NCBI GenBank assembly: GCA_903916255.1
Contig: CAIWVW010000006.1
Location: forward strand, 24,026 to 88,025
DNA: 64,000 nucleotides
Direction: 5' to 3'
Source of the DNA: an uncultured Bacteroidota bacterium
Lineage (GTDB): Bacteria; Bacteroidota; Bacteroidia; JABEUT01
Under the pieces are notes generated by a model that worked only from the letters and a program-made list of their open reading frames with translations, ran no database searches and was not told the DNA's origin. The translations under genes and the position numbers were made by a program. Position 1 is the stretch's first letter, and every line of letters begins with the position of its first letter. Shown here piece by piece: positions 45,690 to 64,000 of the stretch.

Positions 45690-45785
45690 GGTTAAGGTTT
45701 GGTATGTTAGTAATGCAAGTATAGGTATATTAAGGCAAAATAAAACTGATATTTTACAGGAATACAATACTTAGGTGGTATAAAT

Positions 45786-45821
45786 AAAAAAGTCCCCGAC
45801 AATTAAGCCGGAGACTTTTTT
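45786..45821. terminator. Rho-independent terminator
   Basis: AAAAAAGTCCCCGACAATTAAGCCGGAGACTTTTTT downstream of the Kelch gene. Confidence 0.85.
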
Positions 45822-45837
45822 AGTAAATCGGAACTGT

Positions 45838-47634: not shown

Positions 47635-47984
47635 GTTTGTGTGTGTTAATAATTCCTTATTGAGTAGTAACCCGGATAAGGTTTGAATTTTGGAGGTGTT
47701 TGATTAGTTGAAAGTATGAATACCAATTTTTAAAATCATTCATACTTGGTGGTAAAACAAGCCTCTTGGTAATAGAGAGGTAAAAATGATTTTCGGCAAT
47801 GTAAATAAATAATTCTTTTGCCGGTAACAATTCAAGTTCTTTTCTTGCTTAAAAGTGAGTTAAGGGGAAGGTGTTTTTCTAAATTTCTGATAGTCAGTAT
47901 TTATTTTATTTTATTTAATTCTCAAGCAAGCCGGAATAACTGACATAAATCAGAAAACACAATGTCATAATAAGGAATATGGAT

Positions 47985-48022
47985 AAAATAAAAATGCCCC
48001 CTGACGGAGGCATTTTTATTTT
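47985..48022. terminator. Rho-independent terminator
   Basis: AAAATAAAAATGCC...GGCATTTTTATTTT downstream of paralogue 2. Confidence 0.82.
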
Positions 48023-48036
48023 TAAAAGAATGAGAA

Positions 48037-49998: not shown

Positions 49999-50217
49999 TT
50001 TTTGTATGGTATTGGTATGTTAGTGTTGCAAGTATATGAAATTAAAATGAAATTAAAAGAGATAAGAATCTCATAATTATAAACAAATAGTTATTTCATG
50101 CCGAAAACATGAGCGATGTCATTTTTGGATGTATTAATTTGTAAATATAGCAATACTAAACTAAATAGTAAAATAGTTAAAATATAGTATTAAATGATAA
50201 AAAACGGCAATGTGCGG

Positions 50218-50305
50218 CTGATTAATATCAGCGGTGAAAATGATAAATCTCACTTGTGTCCGGGTGTCAAATCATGATTTTTATTTAACCAGTACTGTTC
50301 TTTTG
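50218..50305 (+). promoter_or_regulatory. FNR/CRP-like site array and variant -7 box
   Basis: CTGAT-TAAT-ATCAG (50218), ATGAT-AAAT-CTCAC (50240), GGGTG-TCAA-ATCAT (50262) at a 22-bp period; TTCTTTTG at 50298..50305. Confidence 0.6.
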
Positions 50306-50325
50306 CGCCACCAAATTAAAAGAAC

Positions 50326-50601
50326 ATGCCAATTACTTTAAGTATCCAGTCTTTTCTTTCGTTTGCATTTGTTGCATTAATTTTTCTACCCTTGCCGATA
50401 TTGATAGTAACTAACCTGTTAGGATATTTGTCTGATTGGTTTATGTTTAACAGTTACCACAAGATAATAGAAAAAAAATACGCGCATCTGCAGTCGATTG
50501 AAGTGGAGCACCTGAAAGAAATTTTTCCGCATAAAAATGAAAAGCATTTGGAAAGCATGGCTGATTATATTAATGGAAAAAGAAATTCGAACGGAAATTA
50601 A
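50326..50601 (+). CDS. Small membrane protein (91 aa), paralogue of 1..181
   Basis: N-terminal TM with PLP motif; A-rich leader; similarity to the ORF at the window start. Confidence 0.8.
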   Translation: MPITLSIQSFLSFAFVALIFLPLPILIVTNLLGYLSDWFMFNSYHKIIEKKYAHLQSIEVEHLKEIFPHKNEKHLESMADYINGKRNSNGN

Positions 50602-50612
50602 AATAAAACATT

Positions 50613-50691
50613 GGGCAGGAATCATAAACATGCTGAGCTACATCAATCTCATAGGCGTAAACGATTTTGCTTGGTAGATTCTTGCCCTTTT
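50613..50691 (+). ncRNA. Candidate structured RNA, copy 1 (3' UTR hairpin)
   Basis: 11-bp closing stem GGGCAGGAATC/GATTCTTGCCC followed by TTTT; core TCTCATAGGCGTAAACGATT. Confidence 0.55.
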
Positions 50692-50722
50692 CCTTTATGT
50701 TTTTCTAATAAAATCAACAGAA

Positions 50723-50766
50723 CTGACGTATATCAGTAAATTTTAAAATAAGTGCAATTACATTTG
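50723..50766 (+). promoter_or_regulatory. Class II-type promoter: FNR-like box plus consensus -7 box
   Basis: CTGAC-GTAT-ATCAG (50723..50736) and TACATTTG (50759..50766); no ORF follows. Confidence 0.7.
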
Positions 50767-50770
50767 CAAC

Positions 50771-50880
50771 CTCAAAAAAGAGTTTAAGCTCTTTAAATGC
50801 GGGGGGAGGTATTAGCTAATGTCCAAGGTTGTTCTCATAGGCGTTAACGATTCAGGCAGGCGATATTCTCCCCGGATTTT
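50771..50880 (+). ncRNA. Candidate sRNA, copy 2 (about 110 nt)
   Basis: Promoter upstream; 5' hairpin AAAGAG/CTCTTT; stem CGGGGGGAG/TTCTCCCCG enclosing TCTCATAGGCGTTAACGATT. Confidence 0.62.
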
Positions 50881-50936
50881 AGAAGGAAAAAATTTTCTTC
50901 TTCAAAAATCTCCGAATACTTAATTTGATTATCGCA

Positions 50937-51989
50937 TTACGAGAATTTGCGGATGCGTTCTAACCCAAACGGATTGAGAACTTTAATTTCCCTTCCGTCT
51001 GTTTCAATCAGCCATTCCCGTTTAAAATCAGACAAGGTGCGTATGAGTGATTCGGTAGATGAGCCTGCAATGCTGGCTAATTCTTCCCGTGAAATCCGAA
51101 TATTATCGTTAGGTGAATTTTTGCGGTGCAATTGTAAAAGCACATCGGCTACGCGTGAACGAACAGAATTATACGCAAGGCTTAGCAGCCTTTCTTCGCG
51201 TTCCGATATATTATTGGCAAGCAATTTTACAAACCGGGTAGATACTTCATGGTTGGAATATATTAGCGACAGGAAATCGTCCTTCGGAATAAGCGCCACT
51301 TCCGCTTCATCGAAAGCACTTGCAGAATCGGTAAACGATGCGCCTTCCAACAAAGCTACATATCCAAAGAAATCTCCGGGGCCATATATTTCGGTAATAA
51401 ATTCTTTCCCTTCCTGATTTACTTTCCAGGTTTTCACTTTTCCTTTTATTACGAAATAAACGGATGTCGGTTTTTCACCTGCTTTATATAAGTCTTCTTT
51501 TCCCCGGAATGATTCGATATGATAATCGGCAGCAACGGATAACGGCAGGCTGAATTTTTTCGCCTCATCTATAAATTCTGCTAAGCCGCTCAAATCGCGG
51601 GAGTAATTCTTCCGGAAAAACTCGGCCCGGCGCAAACGTGTGCGTATGGCATTTAGCAAATCCGCTTCCCTGACGGGTTTGGTAAGATAATCGTCTGCGC
51701 CCAGGTTCATACCCTTGCGCAAGTCGGTTTTTTCGGCTTTGGCCGAAAGAAATATAAATGGGATACCTGCCGTTGATGGGTTTTGCGACACATGCTGAAG
51801 CACACCGTAACCATCAAGACCGGGCATCATAATGTCGCAGATAATAAGGTCGGGCCTTTCGCTCAGGGCCAGTTCTACGCCTTTGTTTCCATTGTCGGCA
51901 GTTACTACCGTATAATTGGCAAGGTCGATAACTTCCGAAATATTCTCGCGCATTTCTGCGTCGTCTTCTATAAGTAGGATTTTTTTCAT
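50937..51989 (-). CDS. Response regulator fused to Crp/Fnr-family domains (REC-cNMP-HTH)
   Basis: LLIEDD..LIICDIMMPGLDG; cNMP-binding fold (GDFFG); ISREELASIAGSSTESLIRTLSDF HTH. Confidence 0.93.
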   Translation of the reverse strand: MKKILLIEDDAEMRENISEVIDLANYTVVTADNGNKGVELALSERPDLIICDIMMPGLDGYGVLQHVSQNPSTAGIPFIFLSAKAEKTDLRKGMNLGADDYLTKPVREADLLNAIRTRLRRAEFFRKNYSRDLSGLAEFIDEAKKFSLPLSVAADYHIESFRGKEDLYKAGEKPTSVYFVIKGKVKTWKVNQEGKEFITEIYGPGDFFGYVALLEGASFTDSASAFDEAEVALIPKDDFLSLIYSNHEVSTRFVKLLANNISEREERLLSLAYNSVRSRVADVLLQLHRKNSPNDNIRISREELASIAGSSTESLIRTLSDFKREWLIETDGREIKVLNPFGLERIRKFS

Positions 51990-52003
51990 AACTATATATC
52001 GGT

Positions 52004-53767
52004 TTAGTTCAATGTGTTAGTAGTGGGTATATTAATGGTAAACGTAGTGCCTACACCCTCTGTGCTCTTAAAATTAATGCTGCCTTTCATCAGGTCGGTA
52101 TATCGTTTTACAATATTAAGACCTAATCCCGTACCTCTGACATTAATAGCATTTTTTGCCCTGAAAAAATTTTCGAACAGATGAGATTGGTCAGTTTCTG
52201 GAATACCCATTCCATGGTCGGTTACATCTATTTCCAGTTCTTTATCATTCAGCTTGGTTGTAAACTCGATTTCCGAACTCTCGGGCGAGTATTTACTTGC
52301 ATTCGAAAGCAGATTTACTATTACATTCTTCATCATTTGGTTGTCCAGAAATACGCCCGTATTATTGCCGATATGCTTATAGGTTATTTTTTGCCCGGTT
52401 TTCAATGTCGAGTTTAATTCATCTATCAAATCTTCTGAAAATAAAACAATATTAAACAGTGTGGGTTTCACTTCTATTTTGCCTTGTTCCAGCTTCTCCA
52501 GCGAAATAAAGCTGTTTAATATATCTACCAAATGGTCCACCGATGATTTTATACGCAGTAAATGCTTGTTGCTTTTATCGCGTATTACATCCACTTCATT
52601 GCTGTTGCGTATGTATTTTTCTATCAGTTCGGTAGAGGATATAATGGTTCCCAGCGGTGTTCTGAATTCATGCGAGGCGATAGAAACAATAAGCGATGTA
52701 AGTTCATTTAAGTGCTTTTCTTTTTCCAGCGATGTCCGTACATCCTGCTCGGCCCTTTTCTGTGCGGTAATATTTTGTTCTACCAGCAAAATTTCGTCAA
52801 TCTCTGTATTTCCGCTGTTCCATAAAGCAACAGCGCTGGCTGTATATAACAGCCCGCGATAGGTAAATTCAAAAGTAGAGTTGATACTTTTCCTTTCGAA
52901 GACCTTCATAAGCTCCCTGGCTATTTCACCTCTCTTTTCCGGCGGAAAACGGGTTAAGTAATCGGTACCCATTAAATCTTCGGGTGCAATCTCGAATTTT
53001 GAAAGTTCTTTTCCGTTGGCAAAAACATATTTTAAGTCGCGGTTAAGAACATTGATGGTACCATCGGGAAAGTTAGTGGCTATCATTTCATACCGCCGCT
53101 GACTGTCGTGTAGCTTTTGTTCGGCCAAGTTTCTTTTTCGGCGGTCGTTCAAATGCAATATGTAGGTAAGAATAAGTAAAAGCACACAAACCACAATACC
53201 CGCAAAATAGAATTTACCGGTTGCACCTGCATTATGCACCATGTCGTCTTCTTTCTCTTCCAGCAATGCTTTGGTCGATTTTTGAAGGCGGTCTATCATG
53301 GCATTTATCGAATCGGAAACATTCTTCTCTGTATCGGATGCTATGATACGCTGGGCGGCCTCGAAACCGTTTTTGCTGCTGCGTAAAATGATACCCGTGT
53401 TCAGTAGTTCGATGCGCATGGATATTAACGAATCGATATGCGTGAACGATTTGCGTTGCTGCAGGGTCGGATTGCCTATTGTCAGCAGTTCGCCCGCTAT
53501 TTTGGTTAACTTGTTGCGGTCGCTTATATAAGGGTCGAGGTACATGTTCTTACTCGTAATTATATACCCCTTTTCGGCATTTTCGGCATCCTTTAGGGTA
53601 GATTGGATGGTTCCCAACGTTTCGATAAGCAGGTGCGTATTTGTTACATCTTTGTCGGATGCTATGTAGGTGGAAGTACTCCGGAATGACTCGAAGCCAA
53701 TAAACCCAAGAATGGCAATAGCTGCAACGTATCCAATCAGGATTAATCTGTCGTAAATACTTTTCAT
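52004..53767 (-). CDS. CHASE3-PAS sensor histidine kinase
   Basis: DAENAEKGYIIT..YLDPY (CHASE3); PAS-like segment; ASHEFRTPLG; NLLSNASKYS; GTGLGL. Confidence 0.93.
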   Translation of the reverse strand: MKSIYDRLILIGYVAAIAILGFIGFESFRSTSTYIASDKDVTNTHLLIETLGTIQSTLKDAENAEKGYIITSKNMYLDPYISDRNKLTKIAGELLTIGNPTLQQRKSFTHIDSLISMRIELLNTGIILRSSKNGFEAAQRIIASDTEKNVSDSINAMIDRLQKSTKALLEEKEDDMVHNAGATGKFYFAGIVVCVLLLILTYILHLNDRRKRNLAEQKLHDSQRRYEMIATNFPDGTINVLNRDLKYVFANGKELSKFEIAPEDLMGTDYLTRFPPEKRGEIARELMKVFERKSINSTFEFTYRGLLYTASAVALWNSGNTEIDEILLVEQNITAQKRAEQDVRTSLEKEKHLNELTSLIVSIASHEFRTPLGTIISSTELIEKYIRNSNEVDVIRDKSNKHLLRIKSSVDHLVDILNSFISLEKLEQGKIEVKPTLFNIVLFSEDLIDELNSTLKTGQKITYKHIGNNTGVFLDNQMMKNVIVNLLSNASKYSPESSEIEFTTKLNDKELEIDVTDHGMGIPETDQSHLFENFFRAKNAINVRGTGLGLNIVKRYTDLMKGSINFKSTEGVGTTFTINIPTTNTLN

Positions 53768-54041
53768 TCTTTTTTAATTACTCAACAGGGTTTAATGGTC
53801 AGTTATAATCCTATGCAACATTACGGAAAAAAAGTAATATTAGTAACTTAATACGCGAATAATCGTAAAGGTTACCGATATTATCGTTAAATTTTAATGG
53901 CTGCCATGATTTGTGTCATTGCAAGCCGTGGGGCAAATCAAGTGGAATATGTTTTATTTGTTGATTATCAGTGCGTAAGTTTATTGTGTACATCCGGAAG
54001 GAACAACAGTATAAATGAATGCTTGGTAAAAATAAGCGGAA

Positions 54042-54055
54042 ATGATTAAAATCAG
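54042..54055. promoter_or_regulatory. FNR-like palindrome
   Basis: ATGAT-TAAA-ATCAG in the kinase / DUF6089 intergenic region; second site ATGAT-TTGT-GTCAT at 53906..53919. Confidence 0.55.
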
Positions 54056-54184
54056 GGTGTAGATTTTTGAAAAAACCCACTTTAGCGTCGGAAAACAAAA
54101 TCGGCTCAGATAAAAACAATTTAAAGATAATATTACGGTAATTTTAACTGACTGCCTGAATAGTATAATTGTAAAAAATAACGA

Positions 54185-55063
54185 ATGCGCAAAATAACTT
54201 ACGTTTTTTCTTTTTTTCTGATGTCGGCCGTTTCGGTCAAAGCTCAATTCGCCACTGAAGTTGGGTTAAACATTGGTGCATCCAACTACCTTGGCGATAT
54301 TGGAGGGCAGTTGCAAAATGCGCGGCCCTGGCTTATCGATATGAAAGTGCAGGAAACCCGCTGGGCAGTGGGCGGATACGTAAAGCAAAAGATTAACAGC
54401 CATTTTTTTGTAGAAGCCCAGCTCAACTGGATTCGCATTTGCGGGGCCGACAGTTTATCGACCAATCATGGCAGGGTAGGGCGCAACCTGTATTTCAGGA
54501 ACGATATTGAAGAGTTATCGGCTATGGCCGATTGGATTTTTTATCAGGTAACGGATATTGGCGGCTACTACAGTTATAAAACTACATTCAATGCCTATTT
54601 AACGGGCGGGGTAAGCGTATTTCACCACAACCCCGAAGCTATGTATGAAGGAGATTGGGTAAGCCTGGAACCTTTGCATACAGAAGGGAAATCGTACAGC
54701 CTTATTCAGCCGGGAATACCTCTTGGTTTTGGGTTTTTCTATATTTTTCAACGTCAGTATAGGGTAGGGTGGAATTTAATATGGACTGAAACCTTTACCG
54801 ATTATCTGGATGATGTAAGCGGAAATTATGTTGCATTGCCCGAAGGTTCGGAGGCTGCTTATATGGCTAACCGCACATCCATGGTGCCGGGAATGACTAA
54901 AAGCTGGGCCGATAACTATTTGCCCGGCAACAAGCGCGGAGACCCAAGTAACAAAGACAGTTTTATTACAACTCAAATATCGCTGGGTTATGTAATTAAA
55001 GGCTCGAGCCATAAGATAATACATAAGTCCCTGTTCAATTACAGGTCGCGCTCTACGTTCTAA
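54185..55063 (+). CDS. DUF6089 / PorT-like outer-membrane beta-barrel protein
   Basis: GASNYLGDIGG, RNLYFRNDI, TFTDYLDDVSG, RGDP..KDSF motifs. Confidence 0.85.
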   Translation: MRKITYVFSFFLMSAVSVKAQFATEVGLNIGASNYLGDIGGQLQNARPWLIDMKVQETRWAVGGYVKQKINSHFFVEAQLNWIRICGADSLSTNHGRVGRNLYFRNDIEELSAMADWIFYQVTDIGGYYSYKTTFNAYLTGGVSVFHHNPEAMYEGDWVSLEPLHTEGKSYSLIQPGIPLGFGFFYIFQRQYRVGWNLIWTETFTDYLDDVSGNYVALPEGSEAAYMANRTSMVPGMTKSWADNYLPGNKRGDPSNKDSFITTQISLGYVIKGSSHKIIHKSLFNYRSRSTF

Positions 55064-55674
55064 TTCTTCAGCTGAACCTTTTCTTCGCAAAACCCGAATT
55101 CTTCTTCGCGGTTGTTTGAGAACACGATAATCGTTTTCCCTTTTGCATACTCGTTAATCATAGCCTTATACCATTGAACCGAATTGGCATCCAGTGCGGT
55201 AACAGGCTCATCCAGCAATAGGAGGGGCGTATCTGACAAAATTGCCAAGCCAAGTTTTACCCGCTGTTTCATACCCGATGAGAAGTTCCTGTAATGCTTT
55301 TCGCGCGTATGCTCGAGGTTAAGAATCCCGATGGCATCTTTTACCGAAATATTGTTTATAAACCGCTTAAACTGTGTATGGAAAGTGATGATTTCTTCCA
55401 ATGTGTATTCCTCCGGAATATCAAGCCAGGGCGCGGCAATAGAAATGTATTGAAATACATCTTCCGGTTTCAATGTTTTATTATTCCACGAATGTGTAAT
55501 GCTTCCTTCCGAAAGTGTTGCCCCGCCTGAAACTATCTTTAACAAAGTGGATTTTCCCGAGCCATTCGGCCCGATTACAACATACTTTTTGCCTGAAATA
55601 AACGCATTCGAGAAATTCCGGAAAATCCAGTTGCTTCCGTACTTTTTGCCTGCATTTGTGAGGGTGATGTTCAA
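55060..55674 (-). CDS. Stand-alone ABC ATP-binding protein
   Basis: GPNGSGKST; FSSGMKQR; LLLDEP; TTG start. Confidence 0.9.
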   Translation of the reverse strand: MNITLTNAGKKYGSNWIFRNFSNAFISGKKYVVIGPNGSGKSTLLKIVSGGATLSEGSITHSWNNKTLKPEDVFQYISIAAPWLDIPEEYTLEEIITFHTQFKRFINNISVKDAIGILNLEHTREKHYRNFSSGMKQRVKLGLAILSDTPLLLLDEPVTALDANSVQWYKAMINEYAKGKTIIVFSNNREEEFGFCEEKVQLKN

Positions 55675-55712
55675 TTTCTGTGAAGGTTTTCCTGTAAGGT
55701 AGATAAATTATT

Positions 55713-56366
55713 TCAGTTGCTGTTATTTACGGGAACATCACTATTGATACCTGCATAAACCAATACTTTGTGTTGCTTTTTTGAATATGCAATACATTGA
55801 TAACATTCTACTCCTATGGAATATTGAAATCCAATAATTGATTGGTCTGAATCTATTTCTTTCATAAATACAGTATCGCTTTGTATCTCATCATCTACAG
55901 GGTTTCCACCGGTAACGGTATCAATGAAAGCTGTAGAGTTCTCAAAAAATGCTTTCACTCGATATTTAATACTGTCGTCAATATTTGCAATACCCGCTCC
56001 TCTGATATCAGACTTGTTGAATAAATCAGAGCTTAAGAAGGTATCAACATAAATCCTTTCTCCCTTGTATGAAATAATAGAAAATATAGCGGTAGCATTA
56101 TACAAGGAATCGCCTATTAGTATTAACTTAAAGGTATCTTTTTGTGAATGGTTAGTAAAGAAATGCGGCGTAATATTGGATGTTAAAATATGCTGAGCTT
56201 GATTTAAAGAAGTAGTCGGCTTAATTGCAACTTGTGTGCCTGCACTATCTTCATTTTTTACAGTTTCATTTTTGTTGCCCCTTGAATTACATGAATAGGC
56301 AATGATACAAATAAGAAGAGTATATGCCGTTACTTTAATTGAATGAAAAAATCGTATTGAAATCAT
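55713..56366 (-). CDS. Hypothetical lipoprotein (AT-rich)
   Basis: Lipobox AYSC; ATG 56366. Confidence 0.78.
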   Translation of the reverse strand: MISIRFFHSIKVTAYTLLICIIAYSCNSRGNKNETVKNEDSAGTQVAIKPTTSLNQAQHILTSNITPHFFTNHSQKDTFKLILIGDSLYNATAIFSIISYKGERIYVDTFLSSDLFNKSDIRGAGIANIDDSIKYRVKAFFENSTAFIDTVTGGNPVDDEIQSDTVFMKEIDSDQSIIGFQYSIGVECYQCIAYSKKQHKVLVYAGINSDVPVNNSN

Positions 56367-56396
56367 AAGCAATCAGCGTCATCTGCGTTCTATGCT

Positions 56397-57206
56397 TTAA
56401 TTCTCCACCGCATCCGATTCTTTCAGGCTGCTCAATGGGCCTTTCATAATGCCATTTGGCGAATTATTAATGAAATCGATAATGCTTTGCTTTTCAGCAG
56501 AGTTTGGTATCTCCGCTTCAATGGCTTTTAATGCTGTGGGTATGCTGGTACCCATTACATAAAGCAGGCGATAAATATCTTCTATCTGTTTAATGACTTC
56601 CGGTTTAAATCCCCGTCGGGACAAACCTACCGTATTTACACCGATATAGGAAAGCGGCTCTCTGGCAGCCTTTACATAAGGGGGCACGTTTTTCCGCACT
56701 TTTGAACTGCCTGCCAGAAAAGCGTGTGCGCCAATGCGGATAAACTGCTGCACCATGGAATAGCCTTCCATAATTACATAATCCTCAATATCTACATGTC
56801 CCGCAAGGCCGCTGTATCCTGAAAGAATAACGTGGTTGCCAATAACGCAGTCATGCGCCACGTGCACATAATTCATGATTAAGCAATTGCTGCCTATAAC
56901 CGTTTTCCAGTTTTCTTTAGTACCGCGGTGGATGGTGCAGTACTCACGGATTACGGTATTATCGCCTATTTCAGTAGTTGTATCTTCACCTGCAAATTTT
57001 AAATCTTGCGGAACAGCACTGATAACAGCTCCGGGAAATATGTTGCAGTTTTTACCGATACGCGCACCGGGAAATATTACCGCATGGCTCTGGATATGGG
57101 TGCCAGCGCCAATTTTTACATTATCATGGATAACTGCAAACGCTTCAATGGTTACATTTTCACCAATCTCCGCATTCTTATGTATTTGTGCCAGTGTACT
57201 TATCAT
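56397..57206 (-). CDS. lpxA: UDP-N-acetylglucosamine acyltransferase
   Basis: Hexapeptide repeats; PQDLKF; IREYCTIHRGT; HVAHDC; ATG 57206. Confidence 0.96.
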   Translation of the reverse strand: MISTLAQIHKNAEIGENVTIEAFAVIHDNVKIGAGTHIQSHAVIFPGARIGKNCNIFPGAVISAVPQDLKFAGEDTTTEIGDNTVIREYCTIHRGTKENWKTVIGSNCLIMNYVHVAHDCVIGNHVILSGYSGLAGHVDIEDYVIMEGYSMVQQFIRIGAHAFLAGSSKVRKNVPPYVKAAREPLSYIGVNTVGLSRRGFKPEVIKQIEDIYRLLYVMGTSIPTALKAIEAEIPNSAEKQSIIDFINNSPNGIMKGPLSSLKESDAVEN

Positions 57207-57211
57207 TTCAT

Positions 57212-58672
57212 TCAATTCTGCTTTACCTTTTCAATTTTATCGGCCTTCTTTTCTATTGCTGCACCATTCGTGTCTTTCACTTTGGCTATTTGCGCCATCA
57301 TTTCAGCTTCGGTAGCTATTTTGTCGCCTACGTAGGCGGTACCCTTCATTTTGAAAATTCCGCGTCTTACAGGTTCCATAAGTTCCAAATGGAAGATAAG
57401 TGTATCGCCCGGCACCACCTGGTTGCGGAAGCGTACATTATCTATTTTCATGAAAAAGGTAAGATAATTCTCCGGGTCGGGAACGGTTTTAAGGGCCAGT
57501 ATTCCACCTGTTTGCGCCATGGCTTCTATTTGCAAAACGCCCGGCATAATTGGGTTTCCGGGAAAATGCCCGCGGAAGAAATCTTCGTTCATGGTTACGT
57601 TTTTAACGCCTACCACATGGGTTTCGCTTAGTTCCAATATTTTATCTACCAGCAGGAAAGGAGGGCGGTGCGGCAGTAAATTCATTATTTCGGTTATGCC
57701 GATTAAAGCCGGTGCGCTTGGATTAAACCGTGCAACCCCTTTCCTGAATCGGTCTTTCTTGGCAGCCTCTTTCAGTTTCTTGGCAAATGCCACATTACCG
57801 GAATGGCCCGGCCTTGCTGCCAGAATATGCGCCTTTAGCGGCATACCTACCAAGGCCAAATCGCCTACCATATCCAACAATTTATGGCGGGCAGGTTCAT
57901 TATAAAAATTTAGCTTGGTATTGTTTAATATTCCGGGTGATTTAACTTCTATTTCGCTGCTTTTTTTGTGGAATACCTTAGCGAGATATTCCATCGTTTC
58001 CTTTGGAATTTCCCTATCAACCAATACAATAGCATTATCAAAATCGCCGCCTTTAATCAGGTTGTGCTTTAAGAGTAATTCCAGTTCATGCAGGAATACA
58101 AATGTGCGGCAAGCCGCTACTTCTTTTTTAAATTCATTAACGCTGTAGATGGTTGCATGTTGGGTCCCCAATACTTCCGAGTTATAATCGACCATTACCG
58201 TTAACCTGAATGTTTCCTGCGGCACGGCCAGCATTTCTATATGCCCTTTGGCATCTTCGTAAGTAAGGTTGTCTTTCAGCTCGAAATATACGCGGGGTGC
58301 ATCCTGTTCTACTATTCCGGCACTTTCGAGCGCTTCCACAAACGGCATGGAACTTCCATTCATTATAGGAATTTCAGGGCCGCTTACTTCTATCAGGCAA
58401 TTATCAATTTCCAATCCAACCAAAGCCGCCAAAAGGTGCTCGGTAGTAGCTATTTTTGCTCCGTTTTGTTCCAGGGTTGTGCCTCTCTCGGTATCGGTAA
58501 CGTTATCTACATCAGCATCTATAATAGGTTCACCGGGAAGGTCAACCCTTTTAAACTTATACCAGTGATTGGCCGGTGCAGGTTTAAAGGTTACCGTAGC
58601 TTCTATTCCTGTATGCAAACCCTTGCCTTTTAAGCTAACAGGGTTCTTAATAGTTCGTTGTTTTTCGCTCAT
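57212..58672 (-). CDS. lpxC-fabZ: Bifunctional LpxC deacetylase / FabZ dehydratase
   Basis: GLHTG, TTEHLLAAL, HKLLDMVGD (LpxC); LPHRPPFLLVD, GHFPGNPIMPGVL (FabZ). Confidence 0.97.
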   Translation of the reverse strand: MSEKQRTIKNPVSLKGKGLHTGIEATVTFKPAPANHWYKFKRVDLPGEPIIDADVDNVTDTERGTTLEQNGAKIATTEHLLAALVGLEIDNCLIEVSGPEIPIMNGSSMPFVEALESAGIVEQDAPRVYFELKDNLTYEDAKGHIEMLAVPQETFRLTVMVDYNSEVLGTQHATIYSVNEFKKEVAACRTFVFLHELELLLKHNLIKGGDFDNAIVLVDREIPKETMEYLAKVFHKKSSEIEVKSPGILNNTKLNFYNEPARHKLLDMVGDLALVGMPLKAHILAARPGHSGNVAFAKKLKEAAKKDRFRKGVARFNPSAPALIGITEIMNLLPHRPPFLLVDKILELSETHVVGVKNVTMNEDFFRGHFPGNPIMPGVLQIEAMAQTGGILALKTVPDPENYLTFFMKIDNVRFRNQVVPGDTLIFHLELMEPVRRGIFKMKGTAYVGDKIATEAEMMAQIAKVKDTNGAAIEKKADKIEKVKQN

Positions 58673-58685
58673 TCTATCTTAGTTC

Positions 58686-58773
58686 AAAGTTTGTAAAGTT
58701 CGTAAAGTTTGTAAAGTGAAAGACATTGATTTTACTTTATGAACTTTCAACTTTATAACTTTATAAACTTTAC
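58686..58773. repeat. Short tandem-repeat hairpin (AAAGT units versus ACTTT units)
   Basis: AAAGT at 58686, 58695, 58704, 58713; ACTTT at 58734, 58743, 58750, 58758, 58767. Confidence 0.85.
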
Positions 58774-58803
58774 GGTACAATAATAAGTTTTTTTGCCGGA
58801 ACT

Positions 58804-59838
58804 TTACTTAGAAATTGTCAGGCTTTCTATTTTCGACTCCAGTTCTTTTATTTTCTTGCTCATTTCAGGCAGGTGCCTGAAAATTACGTATGCTTTTTTA
58901 TAATCCATATGGTCCAGGGCAGGGGAGCCTTGTATGGTGCTGTCACTTTCCACATCGGAACCTATACCTGATTGGGCCGCAATTTTAACCCGGTCACCTA
59001 TAGTTAAATGACCCACAATGCCTACTTGTCCGCCAATCATGCAATCGCGGCCTATTTTGGTTGAGCCGGCAACACCTGATTGAGCTGCTATTACAGTGTT
59101 TTCTCCAATTTCTACATTATGGCCTATCTGAATAAGATTATCCAGCTTAACGCCTTTGTGAATAACAGTGGAGCCCATAGTAGCCCTGTCTATGGTAGTA
59201 TTAGAACCTATTTCGACATTATTTTCTATTACTACATTACCTACTTGCGGCATTTTGCGGTAGTTGTTTTCGTCGTTCGGAACGAATCCAAAACCATCTG
59301 AACCTATAACTACGCCGGAATGAAAAGTGCAGTTATCACCAATTACCGAATCACGGTATATTTTAACGCCCGGGTAGATAATGCAGTTTTTCCCAATCTT
59401 GCAGTTTTCGCCAATATAAACCCCAGGATAAATATAAGTGGCTCCATCTATGGTAGTATCTTCCCCTACAAAGGTAAACGAACCTATATATACATTCCCG
59501 GCAAGGGTCGCTTTTGATGAAACATTGGCATCTTTTTCGACTCCGCTTTTTGCAAATTGCTGTTTATGGTAAGCTTCCATTAAAATGGTGAATGCCTGCC
59601 GCGAATCTTTTACTTTAATTAAGGTTGAAGTTCCTTTTTCATCAGTAATGCCATCTGTTATAATAATAACCGAAGCGCCTGTAGTTTTAAGGTAAGGCAC
59701 ATATTTTGGATGAGAAAGGAAAGTAAGCGAACCGGCAGTGGCTTCTTCAATTTTAGCAAGTTTGCTAACCTTGGCAGATGCGTCACCCTCAACTTTTCCG
59801 TTTACTAATGCTGCTATCTGTTGGGCGGTAAATTCCAT
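58804..59838 (-). CDS. lpxD: UDP-3-O-acylglucosamine N-acyltransferase
   Basis: IGSDGFGF, IGSNTTIDRA, KLDNLIQIGHNV. Confidence 0.97.
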   Translation of the reverse strand: MEFTAQQIAALVNGKVEGDASAKVSKLAKIEEATAGSLTFLSHPKYVPYLKTTGASVIIITDGITDEKGTSTLIKVKDSRQAFTILMEAYHKQQFAKSGVEKDANVSSKATLAGNVYIGSFTFVGEDTTIDGATYIYPGVYIGENCKIGKNCIIYPGVKIYRDSVIGDNCTFHSGVVIGSDGFGFVPNDENNYRKMPQVGNVVIENNVEIGSNTTIDRATMGSTVIHKGVKLDNLIQIGHNVEIGENTVIAAQSGVAGSTKIGRDCMIGGQVGIVGHLTIGDRVKIAAQSGIGSDVESDSTIQGSPALDHMDYKKAYVIFRHLPEMSKKIKELESKIESLTISK

Positions 59839-59842
59839 GCCG

Positions 59843-59850
59843 CAAAAGTA
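59843..59850 (-). promoter_or_regulatory. -7 box 4 nt before lpxD ATG
   Basis: TACTTTTG-cggc-ATG. Confidence 0.7.
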
Positions 59851-60169
59851 CTACTAATTATGAAGTTGAGATGAGTATATATAGTGAGTTATGAGCAATT
59901 AGCTGTTAGTTCTATATGTTTGAAATCAGGCTATTGTGGAATGCATCCGCAGTCTTTTTGCAAATACCGGTCCGAGTTATTAACAATTAATTTGCTTTGG
60001 TTTTCATGTTGTTACGATATAAATAGTTAATAACCTTTTCATGTAATTGCAAAAAGTGCGTATCGTGAAAAGCGTATCGCCGTAGTAAAGCCATACCTGA
60101 TAAATAAACACACGCGATTCATATACCCGCAGGCTTTAACACACCCTGCTTATCAAACCTAAACAACCC

Positions 60170-61390
60170 ATGAAAAGAGCATACTTTATTTTACTTCTTA
60201 ACTTTTCCCTATTTACACATTGCTGCCGGGCACAGGTTACCATGGTAGGAATGTCGCAAAAGGGCGGATTCAGCAACCACGGCACAATTTTCAGTGTCAA
60301 TTCTTCGGGAAATATCGAAACACTTTACAATTTTAATGAAGGCATAAACGGTTGTGTTCCGCATAGCGGTTTGGTGCAGGATAGCGATGGAAGTCTTTAT
60401 GGGGTAGCTGCCGGTTGCGGAATTCATAACGTAGGTACATTGATAAAATACAATGGCGAAAATCACGGCATTACCAAATTGGTCGATTTCCATAATACTA
60501 TTGGAGCCAACCCGGTTGGAGATTTGGTGATAGGTTCAGACGGAGCCCTTTACGGTATGACTAACTCAGGCGGAATAAATGATTTCGGTACCATATTCAA
60601 GTGCACCACCGATGGCAAGTTAACTACTATTGCAAACTTTACACGCGGCAACGGCTCTTACCCGAAAGGAAGCCTGGTGAAAGATTGTTGCGGCAATTTT
60701 TACGGCATGACCCGTTTAGGTGGCGATTACGATAAAGGTGTAATATTCAAATGCACATCATCGGGAGTGGTAACGGTGCTGCATAGTTTTAACGGAAACG
60801 ATGGAGCCATGCCCGAAGGCAACCTTATAATTGTGAAAGACAGTTTGCTTTACGGTGTATCTAAAATAGGCGGAAATGGCGGCGGAAGCATATTCCTCTG
60901 TTCCGTTTCGGGAAAATTCATATTGCTCAATAGTTTTAACAACAAAACAGGCATAAAGCCTTCCGGGAGCCTTTTAAATGGCGGAGATGGTTACTTGTAT
61001 GGCGCAACTGATACAGGAGGAGCCTTTAATTACGGCACATTATTTCGTTGCACGGAAAGCGGAAGAATATCGGTATTGGTTAATTTTAACGATACAAATG
61101 GTGCCGACCCACAGGGAACATTATCAAAAGGCCCTGACGGCATAATTTATGGCATGACCCGCTTTGGTGGTGGCTATTCCGATGCCGGAATAATTTTCAA
61201 ATACACTGTTTCGACCGGAAAACTGGAAACCCTAACCGAGTTTACAAGTACGAATGCTCAAATGACATCGGGCAGTTTAACAGAAATGAAGCTGAATACC
61301 GATTTAAAAGAACTTGCCTCCAACAAAAAACTGGGCAAGCACAACACAGTTGCTAAAAAAGGCAGCAGGAGCGGGATGGGGGAGTTGTAG
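60170..61390 (+). CDS. TIGR03803 / GloVer-type tandem repeat protein
   Basis: Repeats of P.GSL..G.DG.LYG.T..GG..D.GTIF; signal peptide; no T9SS CTD visible. Confidence 0.85.
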   Translation: MKRAYFILLLNFSLFTHCCRAQVTMVGMSQKGGFSNHGTIFSVNSSGNIETLYNFNEGINGCVPHSGLVQDSDGSLYGVAAGCGIHNVGTLIKYNGENHGITKLVDFHNTIGANPVGDLVIGSDGALYGMTNSGGINDFGTIFKCTTDGKLTTIANFTRGNGSYPKGSLVKDCCGNFYGMTRLGGDYDKGVIFKCTSSGVVTVLHSFNGNDGAMPEGNLIIVKDSLLYGVSKIGGNGGGSIFLCSVSGKFILLNSFNNKTGIKPSGSLLNGGDGYLYGATDTGGAFNYGTLFRCTESGRISVLVNFNDTNGADPQGTLSKGPDGIIYGMTRFGGGYSDAGIIFKYTVSTGKLETLTEFTSTNAQMTSGSLTEMKLNTDLKELASNKKLGKHNTVAKKGSRSGMGEL

Positions 61391-61574
61391 GATAAAATAT
61401 TTAGAACACTAGTGCAATAATTTCGAGGTTGTTACGTTATTCACGATGTAGCAAACGATATTAGTAACATATTATAATCTAGGTTGGCTCAAGTTCTTTG
61501 TTTCTGGGTATCTACATGAGATATTAGTTGTAATTCTGTCACATTTTATTGTTAACAAAATTAATTTTACAAAT

Positions 61575-61709
61575 ATGAAAACATTACTTCAAGTTCTCTT
61601 TATTCATCTGAGTCTCTCAATGTTTATAACAAGTGTAGGGCAAATATTGTCTCACGTTGGTGGTCAGGCTGCTCCCGACAGGTTTCGCAACCAAAACAAT
61701 CAATTGTAA
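61575..61709 (+). CDS. Candidate 44-aa leader or small peptide
   Basis: MKTLLQVLFIHLSLSMFITSVGQILSHVGGQAAPDRFRNQNNQL*; TAATTTTA box 5 nt upstream; below ORF-track cutoff. Confidence 0.5.
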   Translation: MKTLLQVLFIHLSLSMFITSVGQILSHVGGQAAPDRFRNQNNQL

Positions 61710-61769
61710 TACCCCAAAAGAATAAGACCTTCATGGGAGGAGCTCCCGGTTCAAATCCGGGGCCTGTCG
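61676..61769 (+). ncRNA. tRNA-like element (acceptor-like stem plus T-arm; no D or anticodon arm)
   Basis: CCCGG-TTCAAAT-CCGGG T-arm (61745..61761) directly followed by GCCTGTCG, which pairs with CGACAGGT (61676..61683). Confidence 0.6.
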
Positions 61770-61773
61770 CATT

Positions 61774-61803
61774 AAGCCACGATTTTCATATCGTGGCTTT
61801 TTT
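61774..61803 (+). terminator. Rho-independent terminator
   Basis: AAGCCACGA-TTTTCATA-TCGTGGCTT followed by TTTT. Confidence 0.88.
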
Positions 61804-62147
61804 ATTTCCAGACCCCACCCTCCAAAGCCCAATGCGTTTAATATTTGCCTGTCGGGCCCCGACTTCGGTACCACTAATTAGTGTCAATGGCCAAATCATC
61901 AAATCTGTGTAATTTGTGGCAAGCATTTACCGGGTATTTGCCTGTTATCAAAAATGTCCAAAAATGCTGAAAAAGCAGGACATACTTCAAAGCCATACCC
62001 ATAAAAGGATGCACGCATTTTGCAATTTTCAAATACGCGTAAAACCCGGACATTTCGTCGGAAGGAATTTTGCGGTTTTTGCATGGTTTTAAAACTGAAA
62101 CCGGTTCCTTCAAAATGCAGATATTTGCATAAATCAAGTTTCATTTT

Positions 62148-62777
62148 ATGAAAATAACCCATTTTATTTTAGGAATAGCAACAGTAGCAATATCATCAAT
62201 TAAAGTTATGGCTCAAACCAGTGATGACCCATTGGCTACCTGGGATAAAGCAGTACTTCAACAAGCCAACACGGCTGAGGCGGTAACGTACCTTACTGAT
62301 GAAGAAAAGAAACTGATATTCTATACGAATCTTTGCCGATTGCAGCCCAAATTGTTTTGCCAAACTGTGCTGGAGGACTATTTGAAAAAGCATCCTGATT
62401 TGAATAAAGGCTCGGTAGGGTTAAGGCGCACCTTATTGGCCGACAAACGCTCTGGTGCCCTTGTACCTGATGAAGAGTTTACAAAAATGGCAAAAGCTTA
62501 TGCCGAAAAAATGGGCAAAGAAGGTAAAGAAGGCCACATCGACTTTGAGCAGCGCATGAAGCCCTTTATGAAAAAATATATGCGGGTAGGCGAAAATTGC
62601 GACTATGGCAATGAACAGGGGTTAGATGCTTTTATGCGCCTGCTGGTTGACCAAAGCGACCCGGTAAACCTTGGGCACCGTAAAAACCTGTTGGATGCAA
62701 ATTTTAAAGCGATAGGAGTTGCAGGTGCGCCCCACAAAACCTATCGCTTTAATTATGTTATGGATTTCGGTGGATGA
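62148..62777 (+). CDS. CAP (SCP-like) domain protein
   Basis: Signal peptide; GHIDF..R; VGENCDYG; LLVD..GHRKNLL..F..IGV. Confidence 0.9.
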   Translation: MKITHFILGIATVAISSIKVMAQTSDDPLATWDKAVLQQANTAEAVTYLTDEEKKLIFYTNLCRLQPKLFCQTVLEDYLKKHPDLNKGSVGLRRTLLADKRSGALVPDEEFTKMAKAYAEKMGKEGKEGHIDFEQRMKPFMKKYMRVGENCDYGNEQGLDAFMRLLVDQSDPVNLGHRKNLLDANFKAIGVAGAPHKTYRFNYVMDFGG

Positions 62778-62846
62778 GTTTGATACGGATTGGAGAAAAC
62801 AGTTTAACCACTGCCTAGCTCAGACAACCCAATACTCATCTATTAT

Positions 62847-64000
62847 TTACAGCCATTGGAAGATGCCCGAAACCCCGTTAAATTTGCCGTTAAAATTATG
62901 CAAAGGATTAGGGCCTCCTCCTGTTCCGCCCTCTTTGGGTGGCAATACCTTTAGTTTATTTTTATACTTGGTGTTGTATTCTTTCATCAGCGATTCTTCT
63001 TTAAACTGGGCCTGTGAAACCTCTCCATCCAGCATCTTTATATTTTCCATTTGCAGGTTAGTTGGCCTAGCTTCCTGAAAACATACCGTTGCGTATACTT
63101 TGGTTATTCTTTCACGCAGCCTTTCTTCATCGGCAAATATAGATGTTTGCTTATTGGCAAGCATACGGCCCTTAAAGGCTTTCAGGGTATCCAGGAATAC
63201 TCCAAGTTTTTTATCCGATTTGTTATTTTCCACCAGTTTTTTAACGGCGTCGATTGCTCCATTAATGCTGTCTACGGCTGAAGCAAGCGCCTCATGCATT
63301 TGCATACATTTAAGTGCGGCGGCATATTGGGCATTGCGGTCGTCATCCGTCATTTTGCCGCTGGTTGGGGCAACTACATTTATGTTTTCGCTATAAGTAG
63401 AGTCTCCAACATATAATTTTATGGTGTATTTACCCGGCAGCACCATCGGAGCAATAAATCCACCCTGGTCCATCTTGGTTCCTCCGGTAGCCGTTTTAGG
63501 CCCGGTGCCACGCAAATCCCATGTAACTTTGTTTAAGCCTTTGCGCTTGGTAGCGGGTAGTTCGCGAAGTTGTTTTCCGTTGGCATCGAATATCTTAATA
63601 GATACATCACCCATCATTACGCGTTTTTTCAAATAATATTGAATAGGTGTAATTTCATCTGCATTGCCGCAAACCCAGCCGTCGTGTTCCGGAAAGCCGC
63701 CTTCATACTTGCCAAATGTAAGTTCAAGGTTTTTAATAGGGTAGAGAAACACATCCTTATTAGCCACTTCTGATGACATATTGCGGATAGCGGTAATATC
63801 ATCCACAATCATAATGCCACGGCCATAAGTAGCCAGAATTAAGTCGTTGGTGCGGGGGTGAATTTGCATATCGCGAACTGGGCAATAATCAGGTATATGG
63901 TTCTTCATCCGGAACCAGTCATCACCGCCGTTAATGCTGCAAAACAAGCCTCTTTCTGTTCCCAGGAATAGGAGGTTTTTGTTTTTCAGGTCTTCTTTAA
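62847..64000 (-). CDS. BNR/VPS10-like glycosyl hydrolase family protein, C-terminal part (continues past right edge)
   Basis: Frame open to the edge: KEDLKNKNLLFLGTERGLFCSINGGDDW; DLILATYGRGIMIVDDI; GLNKVTWDLR; VLPGKYTIKL. Confidence 0.85.
   Translation of the reverse strand, partial: KEDLKNKNLLFLGTERGLFCSINGGDDWFRMKNHIPDYCPVRDMQIHPRTNDLILATYGRGIMIVDDITAIRNMSSEVANKDVFLYPIKNLELTFGKYEGGFPEHDGWVCGNADEITPIQYYLKKRVMMGDVSIKIFDANGKQLRELPATKRKGLNKVTWDLRGTGPKTATGGTKMDQGGFIAPMVLPGKYTIKLYVGDSTYSENINVVAPTSGKMTDDDRNAQYAAALKCMQMHEALASAVDSINGAIDAVKKLVENNKSDKKLGVFLDTLKAFKGRMLANKQTSIFADEERLRERITKVYATVCFQEARPTNLQMENIKMLDGEVSQAQFKEESLMKEYNTKYKNKLKVLPPKEGGTGGGPNPLHNFNGKFNGVSGIFQWL

What the first reader, a model, noticed from the sequence alone, without database searches (positions are those of the whole stretch)
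61562..61803. Compact unit: short ORF overlapping a tRNA-mimic, then a terminator
Seen: a -7-like box, then a 44-codon ORF (61575..61709). A perfect T-arm (CCCGG-TTCAAAT-CCGGG) is followed directly by GCCTGTCG, which pairs over 8 bp with CGACAGGT inside the ORF's Pro-Asp-Arg-Phe codons. The roughly 60 nt between are A-rich with no D or anticodon arm, and a strong terminator starts 5 nt after the element. Established: tmRNA and bacterial Y RNAs (YrlA) are tRNA mimics that retain T-arm and acceptor-like features; RNase P and RNase Z recognise this half of tRNA. Inference: a translation-coupled tRNA-like RNA, where a ribosome on the ORF would open the stem; a decayed tRNA is the alternative.
Basis: partly seen in the sequence, partly recalled or inferred. 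Interest (0 to 1): 0.8.

Follow-up and report, generated by a model that had tools for sequence, protein, structure and literature searches.

The report
Expressed tRNA-like RNA end, orphan family
A lake Bacteroidota genome carries a rare, conserved and strongly transcribed RNA whose last ~110 bases fold like the top half of a tRNA and appear to be trimmed as a tRNA is, but the overlapping small ORF shows no sign of being a real gene.

Summary

**What it is not**
- Not a tRNA, tmRNA or YrlA by ARAGORN or Rfam.
- Not a copy of any extant tRNA. Its T-loop/acceptor string is absent from 185,579 reference genomes.

**Evidence that it is a real element**
- One clear homologue exists, soil contig L097. 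The downstream flank is unrelated; its upstream flank lies off the contig.
- In L097, RNA contigs from two independent metatranscriptomes end exactly at the G after GCCTGTC, the discriminator position. They carry no CCA and no terminator.
- In the window, the only RNA contig across 20 kb lies here.

**Fold**
It uses a distal 5' strand (61663-61669) plus an extra helix (GCUCC/GGAGC).

**ORF**
The 44-codon ORF has no homologue among 5.8 billion proteins, and a 1-nt indel breaks its tail in L097.

**Best reading**
This is a tRNA-derived, tRNA-like 3' domain of a longer abundant transcript, matured by the tRNA 3'-processing route. Translation coupling is unsupported.

The parts
61539..61714 (+). 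Stretch covered by the only metatranscriptome contig found in 20 kb of the window. It shows the transcript reaches at least 124 nt upstream of the tRNA-like domain. The strand is not given by the data and is assumed to be +.
   Evidence: run X8, a 176-nt contig with 0 differences. No other RNA contig lies in 44001-64000.
61575..61709 (+). 44-codon ORF (MKTLLQVLFIHLSLSMFITSVGQILSHVGGQAAPDRFRNQNNQL). It has a hydrophobic N-terminus. Its tail lies inside the tRNA-like domain. It is probably not a conserved gene.
   Evidence: No Pfam hit. No homologue other than itself. The tail frame is broken by a 1-nt indel in L097.
61663..61669 (+). Distal 5' acceptor strand GUCAGGC (model B). It pairs with 61762-61768, with one U-U mismatch. 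In L097 it is GGCAGGU, giving 7 pairs, two of them G-U.
61671..61675 (+). Helix-2 5' strand GCUCC. It pairs with GGAGC at 61739-61743. In L097 a 3-nt insertion lengthens this helix to 11 bp.
61676..61683 (+). It gives 8 bp with 61762-61769. In L097 A becomes G, which keeps the pair as G-U. It competes with model B.
61684..61734 (+). Interior of the domain with conserved blocks: UCGCAACC, AUCAAUUGUAA (61699-61709, containing the ORF's stop codon) and CCCC. Predicted small hairpins are GGUU/AACC (61681-61692, so its first three bases lie just 5' of this part, inside the proximal strand) and ACAA/UUGU (61696-61707). Identity to L097 is 69%.
61735..61744 (+). GGGAGGAGC(U). It resembles the 3' strand of a tRNA anticodon stem plus a variable loop. 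In model B its 3' part forms helix 2.
   Evidence: 9 of 10 conserved. One search shows the same string in a real tRNA-Gly(GCC) of viral locus L109.
61745..61761 (+). T-arm CCCGG-UUCAAAU-CCGGG with a canonical T-loop. The only difference in L097 is A to G at the purine-57 position.
61762..61769 (+). 3' acceptor strand GCCUGUC plus the discriminator-equivalent G61769. G61769 corresponds to L097:112, where RNA contigs end.
61774..61805 (+). Intrinsic terminator: stem AAGCCACGAU/AUCGUGGCUU, then UUUUUUAU. The stem sequence is conserved in L097 and the loop is not. Homology ends with the U-tract. This region is absent from the RNA of the homologue.

Best explanation
The flagged region is the 3'-terminal tRNA-like domain of a longer, abundant transcript. 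The domain spans about 107 nt (61663-61769), and the transcript covers at least 61539-61769.

**Fold.** It forms a D-arm-less three-way junction:
- an acceptor-like stem of 7 bp;
- a second helix (GCUCC/GGAGC) that encloses a conserved, largely A-rich interior;
- a canonical T-arm stacked on the acceptor.

**Origin.** It probably descends from a tRNA. It no longer matches any extant tRNA and has no anticodon arm.

**Proposed working.**
1. Transcription stops at the element's own terminator (61774-61805).
2. The trailer, including the terminator hairpin, is removed directly after the discriminator-equivalent G61769. This is the cut RNase Z makes on CCA-less tRNA precursors, which are the norm in this phylum.
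3. The RNA is left with a 3' end tucked into a tRNA-like minihelix, which should make it resistant to 3' exonucleases and visible to tRNA-binding factors.

**Shown:** the sequence features, conservation, transcription, and the sharp RNA boundary in the homologue.

**Inferred:** the strand of the RNA, the enzyme, the fold (predicted; only two sequences), and the stabilising or mimic role.

The 44-codon ORF is most likely fortuitous.
For: **1. Not chance.** About 0.015 such sites are expected per window.

**2. Conserved as a unit.**
- L097 (soil/rhizosphere contig) aligns from its first base to the end of the terminator U-tract, and the downstream flank is unrelated.
- Identities: T-arm 16/17; acceptor 3' strand plus GCATT 12/12; GGGAGGAGC 9/10; interior 38/55; terminator stems conserved with a variable loop.
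- A third context shares L097:77-147 and then diverges (biocrust run X24).

**3. Not a copy of a living tRNA.**
- The 22-mer has 0 hits in genome contigs.
- The R-degenerate 21-mer hits only L097 among 241 million metagenome records and nothing in viral contigs.
- GGGAGGAGC plus the T-arm has 0 hits in genomes.

**4. Expression.**
- In the window, X8 gives one RNA contig (61539-61714) and nothing else across 20 kb.
- For L097, three metatranscriptomes hold only the element part of the 330 nt queried.

**5. Processing.**
- RNA contigs in X20 and X21 (different studies) are both 151-nt pile-ups ending exactly at L097:112. They carry no CCA and nothing over the terminator.
- DNA runs read straight through this point.
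- None of the 9 tRNA genes found by ARAGORN in fetched loci, nearly all Bacteroidota, encodes CCA.

**6. Fold.** Model B is the minimum-energy fold in both sequences, by 6-10 kcal/mol.

**7. Single copy.** Depth is flat and there are no alternative junctions in four lake DNA runs.
Against: - Only two full sequences exist, so covariation is minimal. Changes are one-sided: A-U to G-U and C-G to U-G. In the window, model B's acceptor has a U-U mismatch and helix 2 is only 5 bp.
- Logan contigs carry no strand. The sharp boundary at L097:112 could in principle be the 5' end of an antisense RNA.
- No CCA was seen, although one would be expected on a true RNase Z / CCA-adding-enzyme substrate.
- The window's own RNA contig stops at 61714 and does not show the 3' end.
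- All RNA contigs read through both candidate RNase P sites.
- No promoter was identified. The RNA could be the 3' UTR of the upstream 406-aa gene.
- What lies upstream in the L097-type genome is unknown, because the contig starts there.
- The family is very rare.
Confidence: 0.45

Rival explanations
1. It is a stand-alone tRNA-mimic small RNA. RNase P cuts at the 5' side of the acceptor (before G61663, or before G61677 in the reader's model). RNase Z cuts after G61769. This releases a 93-107-nt anticodon-less tRNA look-alike that acts as a decoy or handle for a tRNA-binding protein. The longer RNAs seen are precursors.
For: - A perfect T-arm and acceptor-like stem, which are the determinants for RNase P, RNase Z and the CCA-adding enzyme (established knowledge).
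- The 3' end lies at the discriminator position.
- DNA assemblies of the soil homologue break at L097:1-3, exactly at the start of model B's acceptor. This hints that the conserved unit begins there.
- The Rfam SpF41 sRNA has a similar layout: closing stem, hairpin, T-arm, terminator.
Against: - All four RNA contigs cross both candidate 5' cleavage sites.
- No CCA was seen.
- No partner protein gene is conserved nearby. The neighbours differ between the window and L097.
Confidence: 0.2
2. It is a non-functional relic: a partial or crippled tRNA copy left by a tRNA-targeting mobile element. Candidates are a small GIY-YIG nuclease cassette or an integrase att site. It would be transcribed only by read-through, and its tRNA-like 3' half would still be trimmed by the tRNA machinery.
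For: - The 3' 36 nt look exactly like a tRNA 3' half: anticodon-stem 3' strand, 5-nt variable loop, T-arm, acceptor and G73.
- Relaxed ARAGORN reads L097 20-113 as a poor 94-nt tRNA.
- In Udaeobacter loci L099 and L122-L124, a GIY-YIG gene sits between tRNA-Pro(GGG) and a partial tRNA-Pro copy. The ORF's last codons run into the former D-arm. In L099 the ORF ends with the same ATCAATTGTAA.
- A sister MAG (L017) lacks this whole region. Synteny breaks at 59911.
Against: - No GIY-YIG remnant in any frame of the window or L097.
- No significant DNA similarity to those cassettes beyond the pattern-selected 11-mer.
- No tRNA in 64 kb, and no integrase within 10 kb downstream.
- No extant tRNA shares the 3' half, whereas in the cassettes the copy is identical to its neighbour.
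- Conservation is uneven: stems and T-arm are held while the terminator loop is free. This argues for constraint.
- It is the most strongly transcribed spot in 20 kb.
Confidence: 0.2
3. One reading: a translation-coupled tRNA mimic. Ribosomes translating the 44-codon ORF melt the acceptor stem, so the tRNA-like fold forms only on untranslated RNA.
For: - The ORF is inside the transcribed stretch, and its last 11-16 codons overlap both candidate 5' strands.
- It has a hydrophobic N-terminus like a small membrane peptide.
Against: - No homologue of the ORF in 5.8 billion clusters.
- No Pfam hit.
- The nucleotide-level conservation with L097 includes a 1-nt indel that shifts the frame within the tail.
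- The -7-like box lies downstream of the start of the RNA contig.
Confidence: 0.08

Closest known systems
tRNA-like domain of tmRNA (SsrA)
   Same: An acceptor stem plus a T-arm joined to a long second helix instead of D and anticodon arms. It is part of a longer, abundant RNA. The 3' end is matured like a tRNA.
   Different: - No ARAGORN or Rfam tmRNA match.
- No G3:U70 alanine identity; pair 3 is C-G.
- The discriminator is G, not A.
- No tag reading frame is conserved.
- No encoded or observed CCA.
- Both strands of the acceptor lie within the last 107 nt, rather than at the two ends of the RNA.
MALAT1/mascRNA-type and plant-virus 3' tRNA-like structures
   Same: A tRNA-like fold at the 3' end of a longer transcript that recruits tRNA-processing enzymes to define or protect the end.
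   Different: - Those are eukaryotic or viral.
- mascRNA is released by RNase P and receives CCA; viral TLSs end in CCA and are aminoacylated.
- Here no 5' cleavage and no CCA were seen.
Rfam RF02435 SpF41 sRNA (Streptococcus)
   Same: Best Rfam hit. It shares the layout of closing stem, A-rich linker, small hairpin, T-arm GGUUCRAAUCC and an intrinsic terminator.
   Different: - Score is 30.2 bits against a gathering score of 52.
- The closing stem aligns with several non-pairs.
- The phylum is different.
- SpF41's function is unknown, and the two papers checked report it only sporadically.
YrlA / bacterial Y RNAs
   Same: A non-coding RNA that contains a tRNA-like T-arm/acceptor module.
   Different: - In YrlA the RNA ends form the Ro-binding stem and the tRNA-like part is internal. 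This statement is from established knowledge, not tested here.
- No Rfam hit.
- No rsr or rtcB genes among the ORFs examined from 54 kb to about 11 kb past the element.
Partial tRNA copies in tRNA-linked GIY-YIG nuclease cassettes
   Same: A crippled tRNA copy that keeps the T-arm and 3' acceptor strand, lies just after a small ORF's stop codon, and is followed by a hairpin (L099, L122-L124).
   Different: - No nuclease gene.
- No adjacent intact tRNA.
- No GC palindrome replacing the anticodon arm.
- No significant sequence similarity.

Membership tests
canonical tRNA | Cloverleaf with D-arm and anticodon arm, detectable by ARAGORN or Rfam RF00005 | tested here: not met
   ARAGORN finds 0 genes in the window. 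Rfam gives nothing at the gathering threshold or at E up to 10. Only with lowered thresholds is L097 read as a poor 94-nt tRNA, and the window is not.
canonical tRNA | T-arm with T-loop consensus stacked on a 7-bp acceptor stem plus a discriminator | tested here: met
tmRNA | Detected by ARAGORN tmRNA mode or the Rfam tmRNA models | tested here: not met
tmRNA | G3:U70 alanine identity and a tag reading frame ending in a stop codon | tested here: not met
   Pair 3 is C-G in both fold models. Candidate frames differ between the window and L097.
YrlA / Y RNA | Rfam model match; neighbourhood with rsr (Ro60/TROVE) or rtcB | tested here: not met
   No Rfam hit. The genes from 54 kb to about 11 kb downstream are lpxA, lpxC-fabZ, lpxD, a repeat protein, CAP, sortilin/BNR, Zip, FGE-sulfatase, DinB and a PKD protein.
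SpF41 sRNA (RF02435) | Score at or above the Rfam gathering threshold (52 bits) | tested here: not met
   30.2 bits, E = 0.008 in a 501-nt search.
tRNA-linked GIY-YIG cassette (partial tRNA copy) | Adjacent GIY-YIG ORF | tested here: not met
   Pfam and a family HMM on all six frames of the window and L097 find nothing.
tRNA-linked GIY-YIG cassette (partial tRNA copy) | Adjacent intact tRNA whose 3' part is identical to the partial copy | tested here: not met
   No tRNA in 64 kb. The 3' half is absent from reference genomes and from metagenomes apart from L097.
integrase att-site tRNA fragment | Tyrosine or serine recombinase and mobile-element genes nearby; a second copy of the repeat on an intact tRNA | tested here: not met
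   The element is single-copy in lake DNA runs.
3'-terminal tRNA-like structure processed by tRNA enzymes (mascRNA/TLS-like working) | RNA 3' end directly after the discriminator position | tested here: met
   Shown in the homologue L097 in two independent metatranscriptomes. Not shown for the window itself. The strand is not given by the data.
3'-terminal tRNA-like structure processed by tRNA enzymes (mascRNA/TLS-like working) | CCA addition and/or RNase P cleavage at the 5' side | tested here: not met
   The contigs end at G with no extra letters and read through both candidate 5' sites. Depth is low (about 3), so minor forms cannot be excluded.

The most novel reading that the evidence does not exclude
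Bacteria of at least two habitats make an abundant cellular RNA that has been fitted with a D-arm-less, anticodon-less tRNA mimic as its 3' end. tRNA-processing enzymes, rather than the terminator, define this end. It would be a bacterial counterpart of the MALAT1/mascRNA or viral TLS principle. Alternatively, it is a dedicated decoy for a tRNA-binding factor. The two alternative 5' strands (61663-61669 and 61676-61683) would let the RNA switch between a closed tRNA-like form and an open form.
Probability: 0.3. Interest if true: 0.75.

Novelty: new variant of a known kind. Interest (0 to 1): 0.5.

Why it matters
tRNA mimicry is a recurrent way for RNAs to borrow the cell's tRNA enzymes. Few bacterial examples beyond tmRNA and YrlA are defined, and I know of none described for Bacteroidota. 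This element is small and sharply bounded. It is visible in environmental RNA and absent from Rfam. If its 3' end is really made by RNase Z and it carries a longer RNA, it would be a simple natural module for RNA 3'-end definition and stabilisation in a phylum that lacks many classical sRNA tools. Its rarity, with two or three lineages found, limits its general importance.

Tried and rejected

**Homologue searches that led nowhere**
- Exact or degenerate pattern scans. Searches gave nothing. One search gave 8 hits, all chance or unrelated apart from the L099 lead. Viral scans gave only chance hits or real tRNAs.
- Synteny. The P0001 orthologue locus L004 and the sister MAG L017 lack the element.
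- Using ORFs that overlap the element as protein proxies (ORF44 and the 59-aa ORF over the T-arm). Each found only itself.
- Recovering the upstream part of the L097-type locus through its neighbouring proteins. Only the same 1,689-nt contig came back.
- Laying soil RNA contigs on the window. They are too diverged to be laid.

**Ideas rejected**
- tmRNA: no model match, no alanine identity, no conserved tag.
- Group I intron-split tRNA: no Rfam hit.
- A repeat or MITE: the element is single-copy.

**GIY-YIG relic idea.** This was followed through. The architecture is analogous, but there is no sequence support.

**Literature.** I found no description of such an RNA in Bacteroidota.

Full report
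**Observation**

The window is a freshwater Bacteroidota MAG. It carries lpxA, the fused lpxC-fabZ and lpxD at 56.4-59.8 kb, and the same locus occurs in lake metagenome contigs.

- ORF 61575-61709, 44 codons.
- T-arm CCCGG-TTCAAAT-CCGGG at 61745-61761.
- GCCTGTCG at 61762-61769, pairing over 8 bp with CGACAGGT at 61676-61683.
- A 61-nt A-rich interior.
- A 10-bp terminator with a U-tract at 61774-61805.

A descriptor for a T-arm, an adjacent 7-nt strand and a 7-bp partner upstream is expected 0.015 times per shuffled window. In 1.1 Mb of other loci it hits only real tRNAs and this element.

**What it is not**

- ARAGORN finds no tRNA or tmRNA in 64 kb.
- Rfam finds nothing at gathering thresholds.
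- At E up to 10 the only notable Rfam match is SpF41 sRNA, at 30 bits against a threshold of 52. It has a similar layout but poor pairing in the closing stem.
- Relaxed ARAGORN reads the soil homologue, but not the window, as a poor 94-nt tRNA. tmRNA mode finds nothing.
- There is no G3:U70 pair, no conserved tag frame, and no rsr, rtcB or WYL neighbour.

**Relatives**

- Same-species contigs are nearly identical.
- The T-loop-to-acceptor 22-mer is absent from one genome each of 185,579 species.
- A degenerate 21-mer is absent from viral contigs and occurs once in 241 million metagenome records.
- That hit, L097, is a 1,689-nt rhizosphere contig and a clear homologue. It aligns from its first base to the end of the terminator U-tract at about 80% identity.
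- Region identities against L097:

| Region | Identical / aligned |
|---|---|
| T-arm | 16/17 (the one change is R57 A to G) |
| Acceptor 3' strand plus GCATT | 12/12 |
| GGGAGGAGC | 9/10 |
| Interior | 38/55 |
| After the U-tract | 2/7 |

- The terminator stems are conserved and the terminator loop is free.
- A biocrust run carries a third context that shares L097:77-147 and then diverges.
- A sister MAG (LpxD 95% identical) has different genes at this position. Homology stops at 59911.
- In four lake DNA runs the element is single-copy, with flat depth and no alternative junctions.

So this is a rare, sharply bounded, conserved unit. It is not a copy of an extant tRNA and not a repeat.

**Expression and ends**

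- In lake metatranscriptome X8, the only contig across window 44001-64000 is 61539-61714.
- The L097 type is present in many soil DNA runs and in three metatranscriptomes. The RNA runs hold only the element part of the 330 nt queried.
- In X20 and X21, from different studies, the RNA contigs are 151-nt pile-ups ending exactly at L097:112. This is the G after GCCTGTC and corresponds to window 61769. They carry no extra letters and nothing over the terminator.
- X23 has a 261-nt RNA contig reaching 188 nt upstream of L097:1.
- DNA runs read through position 112.
- A pile-up of identical read ends is what a fixed RNA terminus gives.
- None of the 9 tRNA genes found in fetched loci, nearly all Bacteroidota, encodes CCA. 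Cleavage after the discriminator by RNase Z is therefore probably the usual tRNA route there (inference from established knowledge).

Caveats:
- Logan contigs have no strand.
- Depth is about 3.
- No CCA was seen.
- The window's own 3' end was not observed.

**Fold**

With upstream bases included, both the window and L097 fold differently (model B):
- A distal strand pairs with GCCUGUC. It is GUCAGGC at 61663-61669 in the window and GGCAGGU in L097.
- GCUCC (61671-61675) pairs with GGAGC (61739-61743). This helix is 11 bp in L097 because of a 3-nt insertion.
- The T-arm is unchanged.

| Sequence | Model B (kcal/mol) | Model A (kcal/mol) | Pair probability B | Pair probability A |
|---|---|---|---|---|
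| Window | -32.7 | -26.9 | 0.98 | 0.001 |
| L097 | -40.1 | -30.3 | 0.999 | 0.0 |

The result is a D-arm-less three-way junction resembling the tRNA-like domain of tmRNA in outline. With two sequences, the evidence is only one-sided changes that keep pairs. The window's model-B acceptor has a U-U mismatch. The two 5' strands are mutually exclusive partners of one 3' strand. That could be a switch, or a trace of the element's history.

**The ORF**

- ORF44 has no Pfam hit and no homologue among 5.8 billion protein clusters.
- The ORF that runs over the T-arm likewise finds only itself.
- Between the window and L097, the nucleotide alignment contains a 1-nt indel inside the ORF's tail. The conserved blocks (UCGCAACC, AUCAAUUGUAA) are therefore conserved as RNA or DNA, not as protein.
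- The -7-like box (TAATTTTA, 61562-61569) lies inside the RNA contig, so it is not the only promoter. No exact TAnnTTTG lies upstream on the + strand.
- Translation coupling is unsupported.

**Origin and the mobile-element rival**

The 3' 36 nt look like a tRNA 3' half: anticodon-stem 3' strand, 5-nt variable loop, T-arm, acceptor and G73. The string GGGAGGAGC-N-T-arm also occurs in a real tRNA-Gly.

One pattern hit, L099 (Udaeobacter), led to an analogous architecture. A tRNA-Pro(GGG) is followed by a 77-aa GIY-YIG gene and then a partial tRNA-Pro copy whose anticodon arm is replaced by a palindrome. The ORF ends in the former D-arm. Earlier notes of this scan describe many such cassettes; I treated those notes as leads only.

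For the window this idea fails each test I could run:
- No GIY-YIG remnant in any frame.
- No significant DNA similarity to the cassettes.
- No tRNA in 64 kb.
- No parent tRNA anywhere in the collections.
- No integrase within 10 kb downstream.

A tRNA origin is likely. A present-day inert relic is less likely, given the uneven conservation and the strong transcription.

**Verdict**

This is a real, rare tRNA-like RNA domain that is missing from Rfam. It is most likely the processed 3' end of a longer abundant transcript. The function is inferred, not shown. It counts as a new variant of a known kind (bacterial tRNA mimics and 3' tRNA-like structures).

**Limits of the analysis**
- Two sequences only.
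- The upstream part of the soil homologue could not be read.
- The RNA strand is not determined.

Noticed in passing
window 61936-62080 (core 62023-62056): A short dispersed repeat. In four lake DNA runs the summed contig depth rises from about 8-14 to 150-290 over the core. Many contigs join it to unrelated flanks. No second copy exists in this window. It lies in the 345 nt between the terminator and the CAP-domain gene.
   Followed up: partly
window 59911 versus L017: Synteny with a sister MAG (LpxD 95% identical) ends 73 nt upstream of lpxD. The sister has two small membrane proteins, an ECF sigma factor and folE where the window has the 406-aa repeat protein, the tRNA-like element and the CAP gene.
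   Followed up: partly
L099 561-1000; L122, L123, L124 (Udaeobacter-like Verrucomicrobiota): A conserved tRNA-Pro(GGG) - 77-79-aa GIY-YIG gene - partial tRNA-Pro copy - ychF locus. In the partial copy the anticodon arm is replaced by the palindrome GTCGCCGCGGCGAC. The ORF's stop codon lies in the former D-loop. Several homologue protein calls read through T-arms at their N- or C-terminus.
   Followed up: partly
window 61848-61855: A second copy of GCCTGTCG, followed by GGGCCCCGAC, lies 86 nt after the first. ATTTGCCTGT recurs at 61937. This is unexplained and not conserved in L097.
   Followed up: no
window 61556-61563, minus strand: The only exact Bacteroidota -7 motif (TAATTTTG) near the element is on the minus strand. 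It would start an antisense RNA running away from the ORF's start region.
   Followed up: no
window 60170-61390: A 406-aa secreted protein made of about eight glycine-rich repeats (...GG..G.G.IF...) has no Pfam hit. Homologues occur in Bacteroidota, Verrucomicrobiota and Nostoc. In two distant homologue loci (L010, L013), tRNA gene clusters lie just upstream.
   Followed up: no
L010, L013, L031, L068: None of the nine tRNA genes found in fetched loci, nearly all Bacteroidota, encodes CCA. In each, the last base ARAGORN includes is a C.
   Followed up: partly
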